NCBI GenBank assembly: GCA_965153285.1
Contig: OZ229111.1
Strand: one strand, 5' to 3'
DNA length: 64,000 nucleotides
DNA from: Podarcis tiliguerta
Taxonomy: Eukaryota
In this document: positions 30,201 through 36,200 of the stretch, piece after piece
How positions within the stretch are numbered: the first letter of the stretch is position 1
Layout: every line of letters starts with the position of its first letter
Program-made: the position numbers

Positions 30201-33200
30201 AAATATCCCAGTGAAAACATTGTGTTGAATCTTGCAGCAGGATTGTCTGAGCTGCAGGTGCAAGGGCAACACGTGCCTTTCCTGCTGTAGCCAAGTGCAT
30301 CTTAGTGTAATCTCCTTTGCTTTAATAAATCTAGCTTAAGGCATCATTGTAGGGCTGGAGATATCAGAAAGCAAACAGAAATCCTGAGAGAAGAGAACAA
30401 AGCCTATCAACAGAAAAGATGCTAGTTTCACCGATGGCTGAGAGAAACAAGGAAACCATCCTCGAGGTGCTGGCTGACTATGTGGATGATACAAGCTCAT
30501 CTTTTGGGCTTGAACTGGGATCTGGCACAGGACAGCATGTGGTGCACTTTGCTCAGGCCTTGCCCACGGTCATCTGGCAACCCTCAGAGATCAGCCCAGC
30601 TTCTCAACAGAGGTACACTGGGGCCTGTGGTGACAGCAAGGGATGGGTGTTGTAGTAGTGTGTGGACCATGCTTTCCCTTGGCCCCAGCAGAATGTTGGC
30701 ACAAAATCGGCACTAAAAAGAACTGGCTCTTAGTCCTTGTTTATAGTCAGCCAAAAGAGACTGTCACAAACCATACGGCAGCTTCTGTTCAGTTGCCTGG
30801 AAATGCCTTTCCAAGAAATAGCTAGACTGTTCTGCATTGGACAGATCCTAGCTGTGCATATATTCTTGGTAAAAAAGAAAGGCTTGCGGCTGAAGCAGTA
30901 ACGGCATGTGTACATTTAAACAGAATAATGAGAACTTATTGATGGCAACCTGTCTTGGACTATACAATAATCTGGCAATAAAACAGTATTTGCCAAGGTA
31001 GATGCATTTTTTAAAAACTTGGTTTTAATACCTGGTGTTGCTTTGACTGCTTAGCCTGGGTCTGTGGATTGTGGGTAGATTAAAATTATCATGGTTAATG
31101 TGCACTAGATTACAGTATGAGAAATAAGGATATGTTTTTTTGAATTGTGGTATGACAAACATGAACAAACGGTTGGCGAACATCCAAGGGGTTTTCCAGA
31201 CGTTCCTTCATTACATTTTATTTTATTGTTAGCTATTCCTGCAATTTACAATTTTCAAAACATGCACAAGGGTGAGGATAAAATTGTAACAGCATTTCGT
31301 AGGTGGCATCTTGGCCTGTGCAAAAATCATCTGGCGCAAACAGCTTAAGTTAACAGATGGAGTAAAGAGGGTATTGTGTGGGGTATTCCTTTTCAAATAG
31401 CAATAACATTTCTGATAGTCATTGCTCACCAAGACATGTTGGGAGGGATGAGGACAAAAACTGAAGGGCATAAAATGGCATGGGAGATTGTGCCAGTGTG
31501 CTGTATTGCTTGTCGCTAGCGTCACATACACATGTGATTTGAGTGCCTGTGTCATTTACACTGACCATAATTCACAGAGCAGTCACACCTGAAATCTTAG
31601 CGCTGTCACTTGGAAAAATCATAAAAATGTGTCCACCCCTTTAACTTGGAGAATCAATGTTGGATGCATGTATCATACCCTTGTCTAGCCTTTCTCTGGT
31701 TCAGAGAAAGAAGTTACATACATTTCCCACTAGCATCCCACTATATTGCCTGACTGTATTTCAAACCCAGTGCTGCTTTTGTTGTGGGGCCAGAGGGAAG
31801 GAAACTGGAGAAAGTAATTCTCCCCATTTTTTTATTATGGCCTTACACACAAAAGTAAGAATCTTCCATCTTTTCCCACAGCATCTCTGCTTACATCCAA
31901 GCCACCAAGGTGACCAATGTCCGAGAACCCCTTGCCATAGATGTAACACAGCCATGGGACCAGTGGGCTGGCGTGAGTCAAGGCTGTTGTGACTTCATCA
32001 TTATTATTAACCTGTTGCACATGACTGATCAAGGCCTGGAGGTATGACAAAGCACTTAGGCCAATATTATGGAAACTGACCTCTGCAAAGGATCTTATTC
32101 AACAGATAACCTTTTGTGTTACAGGGAATGTTTAAAGGCATAGGACAACTGCTGAAACCTGGAGGCATTTGCTTGGCCTACGGGGTGAGTATAGGAAAAC
32201 CATCCATTACAGCTTAAGCTCAGTGGGAAGGCAATCACAGGCAAAGTCCCGTTTGCCAGGATTCCCCATCTGGCCTGCAAGGTCATATTTCATTACATCT
32301 AGGTATGGGTGGGGCTTGCTAGAAGTCTTGATTTGTGCCTGACCACCACCTCCTTGTTGAGAGCCTTTGAATTGATCACTCTCCCTCCACATCAGCCAAT
32401 AGGAAGGCCGAGTGCTTCTGCTTATTGCTTTGCTCGGATGCGTAAGAGTTTTGTGCACCCAAGCCCAGCTCTAAGCAGTATCCACCACCACCAACTTGAT
32501 GGAAAAGGAGAACCTCAAGGTTGGAAAGCAGCTCATATTTTGATCCAGTTCTCCCACAAGACTTCTTGCTCTTCGGCAAACGTGCGCATGAGTCTTACAG
32601 CACAATGCCTCCTCAGAAGTAAATCCTACTGAATTCAATGGGGCTTGCTCAAGGGTCACTGGTGTTAGGCTTGTTGACTTCGTTCTAGACCTTTGCCCTA
32701 AGATCCCCATAGAATGCTGGCCCGGAGTTAATTCCCACTCTGCTTCCACTCCACAGCCCTTCGCCGTTAATGGGATTATCCTTCCAGAGTGCAATGTGCA
32801 ACTGGATAACATGCTCCAGGCCAGGTATGTTAGAGCTGAAGGACTGGATTTCATCTCTTGCCTCCTTTGTGGTGACCACCAAAGCCCTAGTGAGATCAAG
32901 GCGGGATGGGGGAAGGCTACTTGGAAAGTTCCCCTTGATTTATTTCCTATTTACATGTTGTATAATAGCACTGAAGATGGACAACAGGGCAATATTGTTA
33001 GGTGATGAAGATGAGCTACAGGCAGAGACCGTGTTTAGCCTACTGCTTCTCCTTCCTTGGGAAAGGCTGTAAGGATTTCGTTGTGACGAGGCCATGATCT
33101 ACTTTTAACATGTTATGCTTTTAAAATGGCAGAAATCCTGAGTGGGGACTGAGAGATGTGGAGGAGCTTCGTCAACTGGCAAACATTAATGCACTCCGGC

Positions 33201-36200
33201 TTGAGCGCATGGTAAGAGGCTGAGGTCAGCCTACAACATTGTAGGGGGCAATGAAATAGAACTGCAGAAACCACAACCACCACTTCCCACTCTTGCTCTT
33301 TGTTTCCTGGGAAGGGGGATCCCACCAGCTCTGCAGTTTTTCCCATAGGCTTCCATTTGGCTCATCCTCCCTCATGCAATGACTCAGCGCCTATTTTTCT
33401 TCCTTAGCTGGAGATGCCTGAATACACCAAATGTTTGATCTTTCGGCGGAGGGAGTTATGATCTCTGGCTACGGAAAAGTCAAAGGAGGACTGCCCTATT
33501 TATATGGATGGGTGCGGAAATTAAATTAAGAAAAAGAAATGGATGCTTCTGCAACTTCTTTGGGGGAGGGGGGAAGAACGATTTCAGAATGGCTTTAGGA
33601 AATTCTATTCTCTGCGCTGCCCCAGGATGACGAATGCCTCCTGTACCCCCTTCTAAGACCTTGCATGCACCGGTGGTCACAACCCACCAACTCACAACCC
33701 ACCAACTTTTAACCCAAAGTCTACGAGGAAGCACAGACTGAAAAAAGTTTTAAATACTTTATTGTCACTGGTTCCATTCTGCCTACACCAGCACTAAACA
33801 CAAGAGATGAGTCTTCAAAAGCAGCGAGCATAAGTAGGGCAGAGGAAGGGGAGAAGAAACGCAGGCCTGGAGCAGGCTGTGTTCAATGTCGTGGGTTCTC
33901 CAAAGGGATTGAGAAGAGACATGGAGGGCTGTGAGATCATGGAGGGGGAGGGGGCAGTGGTGTTGGAGGTGAAGGCCACTTGATTGGCAAGATGCAACCA
34001 TAGAATGTACTAAAGGGGAGGGGGGGGGGAGAAGGATGTAGGCCCAGATCATGCTGTGGGCTGGACCCATTTACTCTGGCTTTGGAGCATGCTTAAATGC
34101 AGTTTCCAATGAGAAGAGCAGCTCTCCAACCTGTAATGGCGCACATAGGAGGCACTCCTTGAGAAGTCTGCTCTGCTACCCAGCCAACACAAAGCTAGGA
34201 GGATCAGGCAGTGGGCTACTCTCTCTCTCTCCACAGCCAAGGAACAGTGCATAAGGTTATTTGAGCACAGGTGTCTCTCGCTCCTCCCAGAAGGCTCACT
34301 TAGTGAGGGATGGAGGGGGGAGGTACAGGTAGCCAACGGGAAACTACCTAGGACAGCGGGGGCTCAGCTCTCCGTTCCCCAGGGTGGGGATGGCGCAAGG
34401 TAATAGCAATGGTGTAGCGAGTACAGCAGTGACCAACAGATGGTAGTGTTACAATGTCTTAGAAACCCACCCCTCCCTTTCCTCATAAGCCAAGAGATTA
34501 GTCAAAGGAGATCAGCTGAGCCTCTCCGCTGCCGCCTTGTGCCTGTTGCACCTGGACTGGAGCCTGCTGAGGAGGCTGCTGCTGCTGGGGAGGTCCTCCA
34601 GGAGGTGCCATCTGTAAGGAGGCAAACAGGGAAGCGAGTAAGGAGGTCTTGTTTAAAAAGGCATCCTCCTCCCCCATTTAAAGCTACTGTAGTAATGGTC
34701 CTCCAACCCATGGATTGGCACAGAGGCTAAAAAGCCAAACCATGTTGAGCTGAAGGAATTCAGGGCATCAGCCTAACATAAAATGAAGAAGTCGCCAAAA
34801 CAGTTGCCCCCAAAGTGGCTGGTCGAAGACTCACCTGCTGATACATAGGCTGCTGTCCTGACAGGTAAGGCTGCTGGGGTGGCAGGTTACTCAAACCCTG
34901 TTCCTGGCCAGGGAGGGTTGACATGAGGTTCTGGCAGGAAAAGAAGAGGGCATAAGACTTTCCGCCAATCCACATGGCTCCATTCATAACAGGAGTCAGC
35001 CTGGAGCTTAGGGGTGGCTTTGCTGCCTCTATGCACATACAAGAATTCCCTTCCAGTCCTGTCTGCTGGCTGCCCTCACACTGGAAACTGGAGAAGGCGC
35101 ACAGCGCAACAGTTTCAAGGAGTCTCTCACCTGCATATTGTAGGGCTGGTAGCCCATGGAGACCGACTGATTGCCCATGTAACCCTGCGGCGCTTGTGTC
35201 ATGGCTGGGATCGCCTGGGTCTGGGAAGGGGCAGCTGCGTTCTGAAAGGTTAAGGAGGCAGGAATGGGTAAGAAGTCTAGACAAACTTCAACACACAAGC
35301 AAGAACACACAGGGAGAAACTTTTGCTACTTGCAAGCTGGCAAAGACTATATTCCACTCTTCCTCCAAGGAGGTCAAGGCGGCATGTACAGTCCTCTCCA
35401 CTTTATTCACATAGGTGCTATAGGTAAGGCGGAGAGCTTGCTACTTGCACTATGCTTGATGGCTATGGGAAGACTTGAACCTGGACTTCCCAGGTCCAAA
35501 TCCAAATGCTTGAACCACAACAAACATAATGCGATGAACTGGACTGTAGACCATTGAAGCTGATGCAATGATTCTTATTTTTTTGTCTTTTATGTTGCCA
35601 CAGGGCTCCATTATTTTTGCTGCAACAGACTTAATTTGGCTACCCTTCCGAAAATGGTTTAAAATAGGTGCTTCAGCTAAATAATAACAGAAGCATCACC
35701 GCTAGAATGATTCGAACTTGGATCTTCTCCGTCCTAGTCAAACACTAAAGACATCACCACACTGGCTTGAACTCTCCCCCCTCCACTTTCACAGCAGCAC
35801 ATATAATCTGCTGGGATTTAATCCCCCGATTTGGGGCAGAGGAAATTTGGGCTGCGGGTCAAACTTGCCTGGTAGCCTTGGGTAGGTGTAGGTTGGTAGG
35901 AAGAATAGGCAGGATTCGTGGTGGGCACAGCCTGCCCTTGCGGAGCTGCCTGGGCATTATTAGTGTTTGCTGAGTACATGTAGGTGCTCACCATGTTGGG
36001 ATCTGAAATACAGATGAAATATGAGAAAAGGACAGCCTTCCGAGACCAGGCCAGCTAGCCCAGTACCCCGTTTCAGATGCTTTCAGCTAACACATTCCCC
36101 CTCCATCCTATTGCTCTTACCTGTTCCTGCCACAGGCATTGCAGTGTATGGTCCGGTGCTGCCCTGGGCAGGCTGGCTCATGTACACTGTGTGCATAGGT

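What the first reader, a model, noticed from the sequence alone, without database searches (positions are those of the whole stretch)
30419..33461. Intact, divergent METTL26 paralog sitting between MRPL12 and HGS
Seen: six exons with canonical splice sites give an uninterrupted 204-aa ORF with a class I SAM-binding motif (LELGSGTGQH). Established, from recall: human METTL26 lies on 16p13.3, and human HGS and MRPL12 are direct neighbours with no such gene between them. Family motifs are altered here: MPANN becomes MPEYT and SNVDFD becomes CNVQLD. Inference: this is a second METTL26 copy, possibly a whole-genome-duplication ohnolog retained in reptiles and lost in mammals. It would be an uncharacterised methyltransferase, perhaps with changed specificity.
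Basis: partly seen in the sequence, partly recalled or inferred. Interest (0 to 1): 0.75.

Follow-up and report, generated by a model that had tools for sequence, protein, structure and literature searches.

The report
Known METTL26B paralog in a lizard
This is an intact lizard copy of METTL26B, an old sister gene of the methyltransferase METTL26 that many fish and reptiles keep; public databases already list it, but nobody has studied it.

Summary
Six GT..AG exons on the + strand (30419-33461) encode 204 aa plus a stop. All five exon peptides scanned match Pfam DUF938, the METTL26 family, in colinear order. The gene lies between MRPL12 and HGS.

Its relatives are named 'methyltransferase-like 26 B' in lizards, turtles, lungfish, ray-finned fish and a chimaera. 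A Podarcis muralis record matches exons 2-5 at 119 of 121 residues. Pogona, Varanus, Elgaria and Heteronotia each also have a separate mammal-like 'methyltransferase-like 26'.

In a 70-row ML tree, window exons 1 and 2 fall inside a B clade with 100/100 support. Both the A and B clades hold cartilaginous and bony vertebrates. The duplication therefore predates jawed vertebrates. A whole-genome-duplication origin is inferred, not shown.

The window keeps 14 of 14 family-invariant residues. B-specific changes (F154L, A192E, loss of the NN pair) lie away from the SAM motifs, on a helix and hairpin that I take, by analogy, to line the acceptor site.

No B-type protein from a mammal, bird, crocodilian, amphibian or snake was listed. 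The function is unknown. Four literature terms for the B copy found 0 papers.

The parts
28200..29199 (.). CpG island between MRPL12 and the methyltransferase gene; likely a shared bidirectional promoter
   Evidence: GC is 0.56-0.69 and CpG observed/expected is 0.65-1.33 in the 200-nt windows from 28200 to 29199, against 0.00-0.28 on both sides. The MRPL12 start ATG on the - strand at 28618-28616 was read by eye (ORF 28496..28747). Promoter function is inferred.
28861..29027 (+). Putative upstream alternative or 5' exon of the gene. It holds the ORF that starts the Podarcis muralis 'isoform X2' model.
   Evidence: window 28861-29025 is 44/51 identical (E 1e-29) to the first 51 residues of P0219. 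That model then continues straight into exon 2. The donor GT at 29028 is the one that keeps frame with exon 2 (by eye). Its use in this species is not shown, because no RNA data are available.
30419..30612 (+). Coding exon 1 (Met1-Gln64 plus 2 nt): N-terminal helix, SAM motif I (LELGSGTGQH) and the strand-2 end WQPSE
   Evidence: PF06080, 64.1 bits, profile positions 3-60; 92-95% identity to lizard 'methyltransferase-like 26 B'.
31882..32041 (+). Coding exon 2 (residues 65-118), including strand 4 and its IINLLH motif
   Evidence: PF06080, 27.9 bits, profile positions 65-113; 52/53 identical to Podarcis P0219.
32125..32184 (+). Coding exon 3 (residues 119-138)
   Evidence: profile positions 120-139, below the cut-off on its own; 20/20 identical to P0219.
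32757..32824 (+). Coding exon 4 (residues 139-160 plus 2 nt), with CNVQLD and the B-diagnostic Leu154
   Evidence: profile positions 140-161; 22/22 identical to P0219; column 154 is L in 22 of 22 B rows and F in all A and outgroup rows.
33133..33211 (+). Coding exon 5 (residues 161-187), with NPEWGLRD
   Evidence: profile positions 163-188; 25/26 identical to P0219.
33408..33461 (+). Coding exon 6 (residues 188-204 plus stop TGA), with MPEYTK and the B-type Glu192
   Evidence: The 17 residues equal the C-terminus of P0219, P0013 and P0012 as printed.
33520..33525 (+). ATTAAA, the only poly(A)-signal hexamer on the + strand between the stop codon and HGS
   Evidence: Its use is inferred. On the - strand an AATAAA at 33763-33758 would serve HGS, so the two transcripts would end about 200 nt apart.
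24101..28618 (-). MRPL12 (context), head-to-head with the gene
   Evidence: Ribosomal_L12_N and Ribosomal_L12 hits on three exon ORFs. The start codon was read.
34495..46336 (-). HGS (context), tail-to-tail with the gene
   Evidence: the C-terminal ORF is 34498..34677 and the N-terminal Met lies in ORF 46244..46408. FYVE and VHS hits.

Best explanation
The region is the intact METTL26B gene of a lacertid lizard. The species assignment is inferred from the 119/121 match to a Podarcis muralis record. METTL26B is the second of two METTL26-family (Pfam DUF938) genes that arose by a duplication before the last common ancestor of jawed vertebrates. The A copy is the METTL26 that mammals keep. The B copy is kept by lizards, tuatara, turtles, lungfish, coelacanth, ray-finned fish and a chimaera, and here it sits between MRPL12 and HGS. 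It encodes a 204-aa single-domain class I (Rossmann-fold) methyltransferase that uses S-adenosylmethionine.

Most likely mechanism. SAM is held by motif I (E32-x-G34-x-G36-x-G38-Q-H40), the end of strand 2 (Q54-P55-S56-E57) and the strand-4 motif around N108. The methyl group goes to an acceptor bound by the helix at 149-161 and the strand-6/7 hairpin at 190-195. These two elements are where B differs from A (F154L, A192E, loss of the N193-N194 pair). B therefore probably methylates a different acceptor than METTL26, whose own substrate is unknown. Transcription probably starts in the CpG island shared with MRPL12.

Shown: gene structure, family membership, paralogy, the age of the split, conservation, and the fold of a close ortholog. 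Inferred: catalytic activity, which elements form the acceptor site, a changed specificity, promoter sharing, and a whole-genome-duplication origin.
For: Structure and family.

Identity: the 20 best hits to exon 1 are 17 named reptile proteins (lizards, turtles, tuatara), 9 of them named 'methyltransferase-like 26 B' or 'C16orf13 homolog B', plus 3 unnamed proteins. These are followed by fish 'methyltransferase-like 26 B' / zgc:103625 (89 hits among 114 candidates). P0219 matches exons 2-5 at 119/121.

Paralogy: A-type proteins of Pogona, Varanus, Elgaria and Heteronotia are, and B-type proteins of the same four species are.

Tree (70 rows, 205 columns, IQ-TREE LG+C20): B clade 100/100 with stem 0.44; lizard B 99/98; win_ex2 with Podarcis 100/92; A clade 91/94, including five elasmobranchs; the chimaera lies in B; vertebrates against 15 outgroups 87/76.

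Constraint: 14/14 invariant and 24/25 near-invariant family residues are kept, and the 25th (Ser65) is the split codon. In 3 of 4 matched lizard pairs B is more conserved than A (85 vs 80, 83 vs 80, 88 vs 77%).

Fold: the Salvator B ortholog P0013 (85% identical to the window exons) models at pLDDT 96.0 and pTM 0.91 as an alternating strand/helix domain. Its best PDB matches are all class I SAM methyltransferases (2o57 at E 4.5e-14 and TM 0.76; 3mcz at TM 0.80).

Derived B state.
Against: No activity, SAM binding or expression was measured. The model gives no coordinates, so placing residues 154 and 190-195 at the acceptor site rests on secondary-structure position and on general knowledge of class I methyltransferases. 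The strand-6/7 hairpin motif, nearly fixed elsewhere in the family, is free to vary in B (MPEYT, MPESN, MPEHN, MDDYY, MEEYN). That pattern could equally mean relaxed function. Over deep comparisons B is less conserved than A in 9 of 13 matched pairs. Exons 3-5 on their own do not reach the Pfam cut-off. Whether this very genome also has an A copy could not be checked. The joined 204-aa model was not searched or folded as one sequence.
Confidence: 0.85

Rival explanations
1. The gene is a true ancient paralog, but it arose by a local (segmental or tandem) duplication on one chromosome and was later separated, rather than by an early vertebrate whole-genome duplication.
For: In three fishes the A and B proteins are reported on contigs of identical length, which means the same chromosome: Chanos 23,837,493; Pseudorasbora 65,081,997; Myxocyprinus 50,596,725. 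No synteny evidence for a paralogon was produced here. The 16p13.3 / 17q25 gene pairs I know of are recalled only, and the one paper found for those terms (listing only) was not about this.
Against: In three lizards, and in the other fish species I compared between the tables (for example Cololabis, Polymixia, Odontesthes, Alosa, Takifugu), A and B are on different contigs. The timing, before the split of cartilaginous and bony vertebrates and after the outgroups, is what a 1R/2R ohnolog shows. The three fishes belong to related lineages, so one chromosome fusion could explain them.
Confidence: 0.25
2. METTL26B is a conserved but catalytically dead pseudoenzyme: it binds SAM or a ligand but no longer transfers a methyl group.
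For: The motif around 192-194, which is P-(A/S)-(N/D)-(N/S) in every A and outgroup row, is lost and variable in B. F154 is replaced in all 22 B rows and I112 in all of them.
Against: All 14 family-invariant and all 25 near-invariant residues are kept, including motif I, N108, N151 and D169. Conservation among lizards equals or exceeds that of A.
Confidence: 0.12
3. It is the lizard's only METTL26, simply moved from a 16p13.3-type location to the HGS-MRPL12 interval.
For: Only 64 kb of this genome could be read, so a second copy in this species was not seen directly.
Against: Four other lizards have both copies. The window exons are 44-51% identical to A proteins and 85-91% identical to lizard B proteins. 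They are placed in the B clade at 100/100.
Confidence: 0.02
4. It is a recent reptile-specific duplicate, a retrocopy or a decaying pseudogene.
For: None was found.
Against: It has five introns with GT..AG ends, so it is not a retrocopy. It has an open frame with every invariant residue. Its orthologs reach fish and a chimaera.
Confidence: 0.01

Closest known systems
'Methyltransferase-like 26 B' as annotated in public genome records (e.g. Podarcis muralis isoform X2 P0219, Elgaria P0012, Salvator P0013, Emys P0021; fish zgc:103625)
   Same: The length is the same (204-207 aa). The B-diagnostic residues L154 and E192 and the C-terminus are the same. Identity to the window exons is 98% (Podarcis, exons 2-5), 85-91% (other lizards) and 78% (turtle). 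They fall in the same clade.
   Different: Nothing of substance: this is the ortholog in another lacertid. Several database models are imperfect. Elgaria P0012 and Pogona P0010 carry an in-frame insert where intron 5 lies. Sceloporus P0009 lacks exon 3. Podarcis X2 starts from the upstream exon and lacks exon 1.
METTL26 (C16orf13, UPF0585; the A copy kept by mammals)
   Same: It belongs to the same Pfam family (DUF938), has the same length and shares all 14 invariant residues. The motif I and strand-4 motifs are the same. Its substrate is unknown as well: PMC8662637 (passages) and PMC13410288 (one table passage) both list it as 'Unknown'.
   Different: Identity is only 44-51%, and it forms a separate clade. 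A has SN(V/I)DFD and MPANN, where the window has CNVQLD and MPEYT. In lizards it lies on a different contig.
Small-molecule class I SAM methyltransferases with solved structures (2o57 putative sarcosine/dimethylglycine MTase, DnrK, NovO/CouO, RebM, a bacterial PE N-methyltransferase)
   Same: The fold is shared: TM-score 0.65-0.80 to the model of ortholog P0013, with Foldseek E down to 4.5e-14.
   Different: Sequence identity is 10-20%. No significant sequence match to any PDB chain was found (best E 0.043). This is resemblance of fold only, not family membership, and it gives only a weak hint that the acceptor is a small molecule.

Membership tests
DUF938 / METTL26 family (Pfam PF06080) | Significant, colinear match to the family profile over its length | tested here: met
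   5 of 5 exon peptides have PF06080 as best hit, in order 3-188 of 202. Exons 1 and 2 are above the curated cut-off (64.1 and 27.9 bits against 27); exons 3-5 are below it on their own.
DUF938 / METTL26 family (Pfam PF06080) | Residues invariant across 63 family members, from vertebrate A and B to distant representatives | tested here: met
   14 of 14 invariant and 24 of 25 near-invariant residues are kept. The 25th (Ser65) is the split codon AG|C read.
DUF938 / METTL26 family (Pfam PF06080) | Class I Rossmann-like SAM-methyltransferase fold with a GxGxG motif I | tested here: met
   The motif is in exon 1. The fold was shown for the 85%-identical ortholog P0013 (pLDDT 96.0; PDB matches), not for the window's own joined protein, which was not folded.
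DUF938 / METTL26 family (Pfam PF06080) | SAM-dependent methyl transfer | not testable with these tools
   No activity is known for any member. This needs biochemistry.
METTL26B (vertebrate B paralog) | Placement inside the B clade of a family tree | tested here: met
   win_ex1 and win_ex2, entered as separate partial rows, both lie in the lizard B clade (99/98) within B (100/100).
METTL26B (vertebrate B paralog) | B-diagnostic residues: Leu at 154, no Ala at 192 (Glu in most), no Ile at 112 | tested here: met
   L154 is found in 22 of 22 B rows and in no A or outgroup row. E192 is found in 82% of B rows, and none has Ala. The window has L154 and M112 and E192.
METTL26B (vertebrate B paralog) | Coexistence with a separate A-type METTL26 in the same genome | not testable with these tools
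   Only this 64-kb window is available. The feature is met in Pogona, Varanus, Elgaria and Heteronotia.
METTL26B (vertebrate B paralog) | Conserved position between HGS and MRPL12 in other species | not testable with these tools
   The protein searches give no genomic context, and the contig collection on hand holds only bacteria and archaea.
METTL26 proper (A copy, mammalian ortholog) | SN(V/I)DFD and MPANN motifs, and grouping with mammalian METTL26 | tested here: not met
   The window has CNVQLD and MPEYT. Identity to A proteins is 44-51%. Marsupials and platypus are in the other clade.
Early-vertebrate (1R/2R) ohnolog pair | Both copies present in cartilaginous and bony vertebrates, and single-type outgroups | tested here: met
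   the chimaera is in B, five elasmobranchs are in A, and ray-finned and lobe-finned members are in both; the 19 unnamed representatives all have the A-type F in the exon-4 motif, and 15 of 19 read MPANN.
Early-vertebrate (1R/2R) ohnolog pair | The two loci lie in paralogous chromosome blocks | not tested
   This rests only on recalled human gene pairs between 16p13.3 and 17q25. Three fishes have both copies on one chromosome, which complicates the picture.

The most novel reading that the evidence does not exclude
METTL26B is a 1R/2R ohnolog whose acceptor-binding surface was remodelled once on its stem (F154L, A192E, release of the N193-N194 pair). This gave a methyltransferase with a substrate different from that of METTL26. 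It was then lost independently in mammals, amphibians, archosaurs and snakes, while lizards, tuatara, turtles and most fish kept it under selection as strong as on METTL26. It would be an unstudied vertebrate enzyme that the usual model tetrapods lack.
Probability: 0.35. Interest if true: 0.4.

Novelty: already known. Interest (0 to 1): 0.22.

Why it matters
The find itself is ordinary. The gene is already catalogued under this name in many fish and reptile genomes, including a lacertid record that is about 98% identical. What remains of interest is modest:

- The METTL26/DUF938 family has no known substrate and no solved structure. It is also large: 5,655 representative clusters at E <= 0.001.
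- Vertebrates other than mammals often carry two copies, which differ at two otherwise near-fixed motifs.
- That natural A/B contrast, in species that hold both, is a handle for finding which residues set acceptor choice once any substrate is known.
- It is also one more case of an old gene missing from the mouse and human toolkits. No paper mentioning the B copy was found under four names.

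Tried and rejected
- **PDB by sequence.** A profile of 19 family members found 5 chains at E <= 1. The best was E 0.043 and none is a family member, so no solved relative exists to transfer function from.
- **Names for the unnamed representatives.** Only Ascaris is a named outgroup.
- **Bacterial-type promoter and terminator scan of 28300-30500.** It found 2 and 2 sites against 1.9 and 2.5 expected. This is chance level, and the models do not apply to a vertebrate anyway.
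- **Rfam on the whole window.** There were two weak tRNA-like hits, both in SLC25A10 introns, and nothing in or near the gene.
- **Pfam on flank ORFs.** 8 of 10 gave the expected families. The ORFs 12683-13015 (-) and 27130-27813 (-) gave none.
- **Paper search for a 16p13.3 / 17q25 paralogon.** It found 1 paper, on metzincins, seen as a listing only and not used.
- **Paper search with 'zgc:103625'.** It was rejected for the colon and repeated as 'zgc 103625'.
- **dN/dS.** It was not possible, because no orthologous coding DNA of other reptiles is within reach.
- **Rejected readings.** Retrocopy (it has five introns), reptile-specific duplicate (fish and chimaera orthologs exist) and translocated single copy (both copies occur in four lizards).

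Full report
**What is in the sequence.** I read 30200-33700 and translated each proposed exon on its own. The six exons are 30419-30612, 31882-32041, 32125-32184, 32757-32824, 33133-33211 and 33408-33461. They total 615 nt, which is 204 codons plus TGA. Every intron begins GT and ends AG, and the acceptors of exons 2-6 follow pyrimidine-rich tracts. Two codons are split across introns: AG|C gives Ser65 and AG|A gives Arg161. The ATG at 30419 is the first Met after an in-frame stop. The 204-aa model was never searched, aligned or folded as one sequence, and all searches were exon by exon. The window contains no N. Nothing in it or among the sequences I used was taken for human.

**Family.** Five of the five exon peptides submitted have Pfam PF06080 (DUF938, the METTL26 family) as their best match. 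They cover profile positions 3-60, 65-113, 120-139, 140-161 and 163-188 of 202, in order. Exons 1 and 2 pass the curated cut-off alone, while exons 3-5 are too short to do so. Exon 6 (17 aa) could not be submitted. The colinear order across six separately spliced pieces is not something chance gives.

**Surroundings.** Six-frame reading and Pfam give this order:
- SLC25A10 (- strand)
- MRPL12 (- strand; exons at 24101-27096, start ATG at 28618)
- the methyltransferase gene (+ strand)
- HGS (- strand; stop near 34495, ATG at 46336; FYVE and VHS domains)
- ARL16 (+ strand; ends near 50542)

A CpG island spans about 28200-29199. Inside it, 243 nt from the MRPL12 start codon, is an ORF starting at 28861. 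It is 44/51 identical to the first 51 residues of the Podarcis muralis model 'methyltransferase-like 26 B isoform X2' (P0219). That model then continues directly into exon 2. So the gene very likely has an upstream exon in a promoter shared with MRPL12. Whether that exon is a 5' UTR exon spliced to exon 1, or an alternative first exon, cannot be told without RNA data. Downstream, ATTAAA at 33520 (+) and AATAAA at 33763-33758 (-) would end this gene and HGS about 200 nt apart (inferred).

**What it is.** Exon 1, searched against longer proteins (89 hits among 114 candidates), finds 17 named reptile proteins among its 20 best hits, at 80-95% identity. They come from Varanus, Sceloporus, Pogona, Elgaria, Salvator, Anolis, three geckos, four turtles and tuatara. 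Nine of the 17 are named 'methyltransferase-like 26 B' or 'C16orf13 homolog B'. Many fish proteins of the same name, or zgc:103625, follow at about 55-61%. One hit, from the fish Thalassophryne (P0063), was named plain 'methyltransferase-like 26' and carries the mammal-like motifs. I used it as a query (7,951 hits among the 8,000 candidates scored, best 120 listed). That search returned plain 'methyltransferase-like 26' from fish and also from:
- lizards: Pogona, Varanus, Elgaria, Heteronotia
- three snakes
- a turtle
- three marsupials

So four lizard species have both kinds. In Varanus, Elgaria and Heteronotia the two kinds are on contigs of different length. A third search used the turtle B protein P0021 (1,646 hits among 1,915 candidates, best 120 listed). 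It added B proteins from Podarcis, two more turtles, lungfish, coelacanth, sturgeon, paddlefish, bichir and the chimaera Callorhinchus.

**Placement of the window's gene.** Summed over exons 1-5 (185 residues), the window is:
- 85-91% identical to seven lizard B proteins
- 78% identical to turtle B
- 51-61% identical to fish, lungfish, coelacanth and chimaera B
- 44-51% identical to all 31 A-type rows and 48% to Ascaris

Against Podarcis P0219, which lacks exon 1, it matches 119 of 121 positions in exons 2-5, and exon 6 is identical. The window therefore comes from a lacertid close to Podarcis.

I built an ML tree (the quick tree agrees). It has 70 rows and 205 columns and used IQ-TREE with LG+C20+F+G4. 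Window exons 1 and 2 were entered as separate partial rows, and P0219 was cut to its homologous part. Results:
- B clade: 100/100 support, stem length 0.44
- lizard B: 99/98
- win_ex2 with Podarcis: 100/92
- A clade: 91/94, not starred, stem 0.17; it holds mammals, a caecilian, a turtle, lizards, snakes, ray-finned fish and five elasmobranchs
- vertebrates against 15 outgroups: 87/76

The outgroup rows have long branches and 14 of them are unnamed, so the root is only moderately secure. Rows I left out were mis-spliced or partial models such as Varanus B P0008, Sceloporus P0009, Chrysemys P0019, Gopherus P0023, Sphenodon P0022, Callorhinchus P0273 and Natator P0221.

**Which state is derived.** A-type proteins, Ascaris and all 19 unnamed distant representatives fetched have SN-x-x-F-(D/N) and a P-(A/S)-(N/D)-(N/S) turn, which reads MPANN in 15 of those 19. 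I looked for columns where A plus sharks agree at 90% or more, outgroups agree with them at 70% or more, and the B majority differs. Twelve columns qualify. At three of them no B row of 22 keeps the ancestral residue:
- 112: Ile in A
- 154: Phe in A, Leu in 22/22 B
- 192: Ala in A, Glu in 82% of B

Positions 193-194 (Asn-Asn) vary freely in B. The window has M112, L154 and E192-Y193-T194.

**Is it functional?** The window keeps 14 of 14 residues that are invariant in 63 family members, and 24 of 25 near-invariant ones. The 25th is the split-codon Ser65. In matched species pairs B is more conserved than A in 3 of 4 lizard-lizard pairs (85 vs 80, 83 vs 80, 88 vs 77%). The fourth pair, Elgaria-Pogona, is distorted by intron-retaining models. 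Over all 13 pairs A is the more conserved in 9, mostly the deep ones (for example turtle-gar, 67 vs 57%). An open frame, intact splice sites and this level of identity between geckos and other lizards are not compatible with neutral decay. dN/dS itself could not be computed, because no orthologous DNA was within reach.

**Fold and mechanism.** No PDB chain is related by sequence (best E 0.043). I modelled the Salvator merianae B protein P0013, which has the same length and is 85% identical to the window exons, with a 63-row alignment. The result was pLDDT 96.0 and pTM 0.91, with alternating strands and helices as in class I methyltransferases. The nearest PDB folds are SAM-dependent enzymes that act on small molecules, at TM 0.65-0.80 and 10-20% identity. 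They include a putative sarcosine/dimethylglycine methyltransferase, DnrK, NovO/CouO, RebM and a PE N-methyltransferase. In the model's secondary structure:
- motif I follows strand 1 (28-33)
- WQPSE ends strand 2 (51-56)
- IINLLH ends strand 4 (101-107)
- L154 lies in helix 149-161
- MPEYTK is the turn between the last two strands (182-190, 194-201)

In class I methyltransferases, by general knowledge rather than any test here, the region after strand 5 and the strand-6/7 hairpin contribute to the acceptor site, while motif I and the ends of strands 2 and 4 hold SAM. I therefore read B as an active enzyme with a changed acceptor site. A conserved inactive protein is the main alternative for function.

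**Origin and losses.** Both clades hold cartilaginous and bony vertebrates, so the duplication predates jawed vertebrates. An early whole-genome duplication is the simplest source, and I recall several gene pairs shared by human 16p13.3 and 17q25. I produced no synteny evidence, however. In Chanos, Pseudorasbora and Myxocyprinus the A and B proteins lie on contigs of the same length, so a local duplication is not excluded.

Among the listed hits, tetrapod B proteins come only from lizards, tuatara and turtles. Snakes (five species), mammals (four species) and a caecilian appear only with A-type proteins. No bird protein of either type, and no crocodilian protein, was listed. This is absence from word-indexed searches that list only the best 120 hits, so it is suggestive only.

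**What is known.** METTL26 is listed as of unknown function or target in PMC8662637 (passages seen) and in a 2026 review, PMC13410288 (one table passage seen). PMC13707005 calls it poorly characterized (start of abstract in the listing). 'DUF938' occurs in one paper. The terms 'mettl26b', 'methyltransferase-like 26 B', 'zgc 103625' and 'C16orf13 homolog B' occur in none. That library excludes most subscription journals.

**Verdict.** The gene is nonetheless an already annotated ortholog of METTL26B, so the novelty is low.

Noticed in passing
window 28861-29027 (+), within the CpG island at 28200-29199: An upstream ORF is 44/51 identical to the alternative first exon of the Podarcis muralis isoform X2 model. 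It lies 243 nt from the MRPL12 start codon on the other strand, which suggests a bidirectional MRPL12/METTL26B promoter. An isoform that starts here and skips exon 1 would lack SAM motif I.
   Followed up: partly
window 1-64000: The gene order is SLC25A10 (-), MRPL12 (-), METTL26B (+), HGS (-), ARL16 (+). HGS (ATG at 46336, - strand) and ARL16 (N-terminal ORF in 46304..46819, + strand) are head-to-head over a second GC-rich stretch.
   Followed up: partly
window 27127-27813 (-) and 19127-19384 (+): These long ORFs lie in an MRPL12 intron and upstream of SLC25A10. To my recollection they look like the C-terminal part of a Bov-B-type LINE ORF2. Pfam gave no family for the first one.
   Followed up: partly
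window 21481-21723 and 46864-47064; also 11804-12163 and about 36900-37070: Pairs of similar translated stretches, one pair ending in a T/A run, are probably copies of SINE-like repeats.
   Followed up: no
window 12376-12436 (-) and 15176-15234 (+): Two weak, partial tRNA-like Rfam hits (35.1 and 31.1 bits against a gathering score of 29) lie in SLC25A10 introns. They are probably tRNA-derived repeat heads rather than genes.
   Followed up: no
database proteins P0166/P0043 (Chanos), P0184/P0028 (Pseudorasbora), P0172/P0074 (Myxocyprinus): In these three fishes the A and B proteins are reported on contigs of identical length, presumably one chromosome. In three lizards and in the other fish I compared they are on different contigs.
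   Followed up: no
hit tables: No bird protein of either METTL26 type appears in any of the three listed tables, although reptiles, mammals, an amphibian and fish do. This may reflect ranking, missing gene models or real loss.
   Followed up: no
database proteins P0012, P0010, P0009, P0008, P0014: Several public B models look mis-spliced or are alternative forms. Elgaria and Pogona carry an in-frame insert at the position of intron 5. Sceloporus isoform X2 lacks exon 3 (184 aa). One Varanus entry is garbled between exons 2 and 3. One Anolis isoform has a different C-terminus. In the window, reading into intron 5 meets a stop after three codons.
   Followed up: partly
window 33520 (+) and 33763-33758 (-): Convergent poly(A) signals of METTL26B and HGS lie about 240 nt apart, so the two 3' ends nearly meet.
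   Followed up: no
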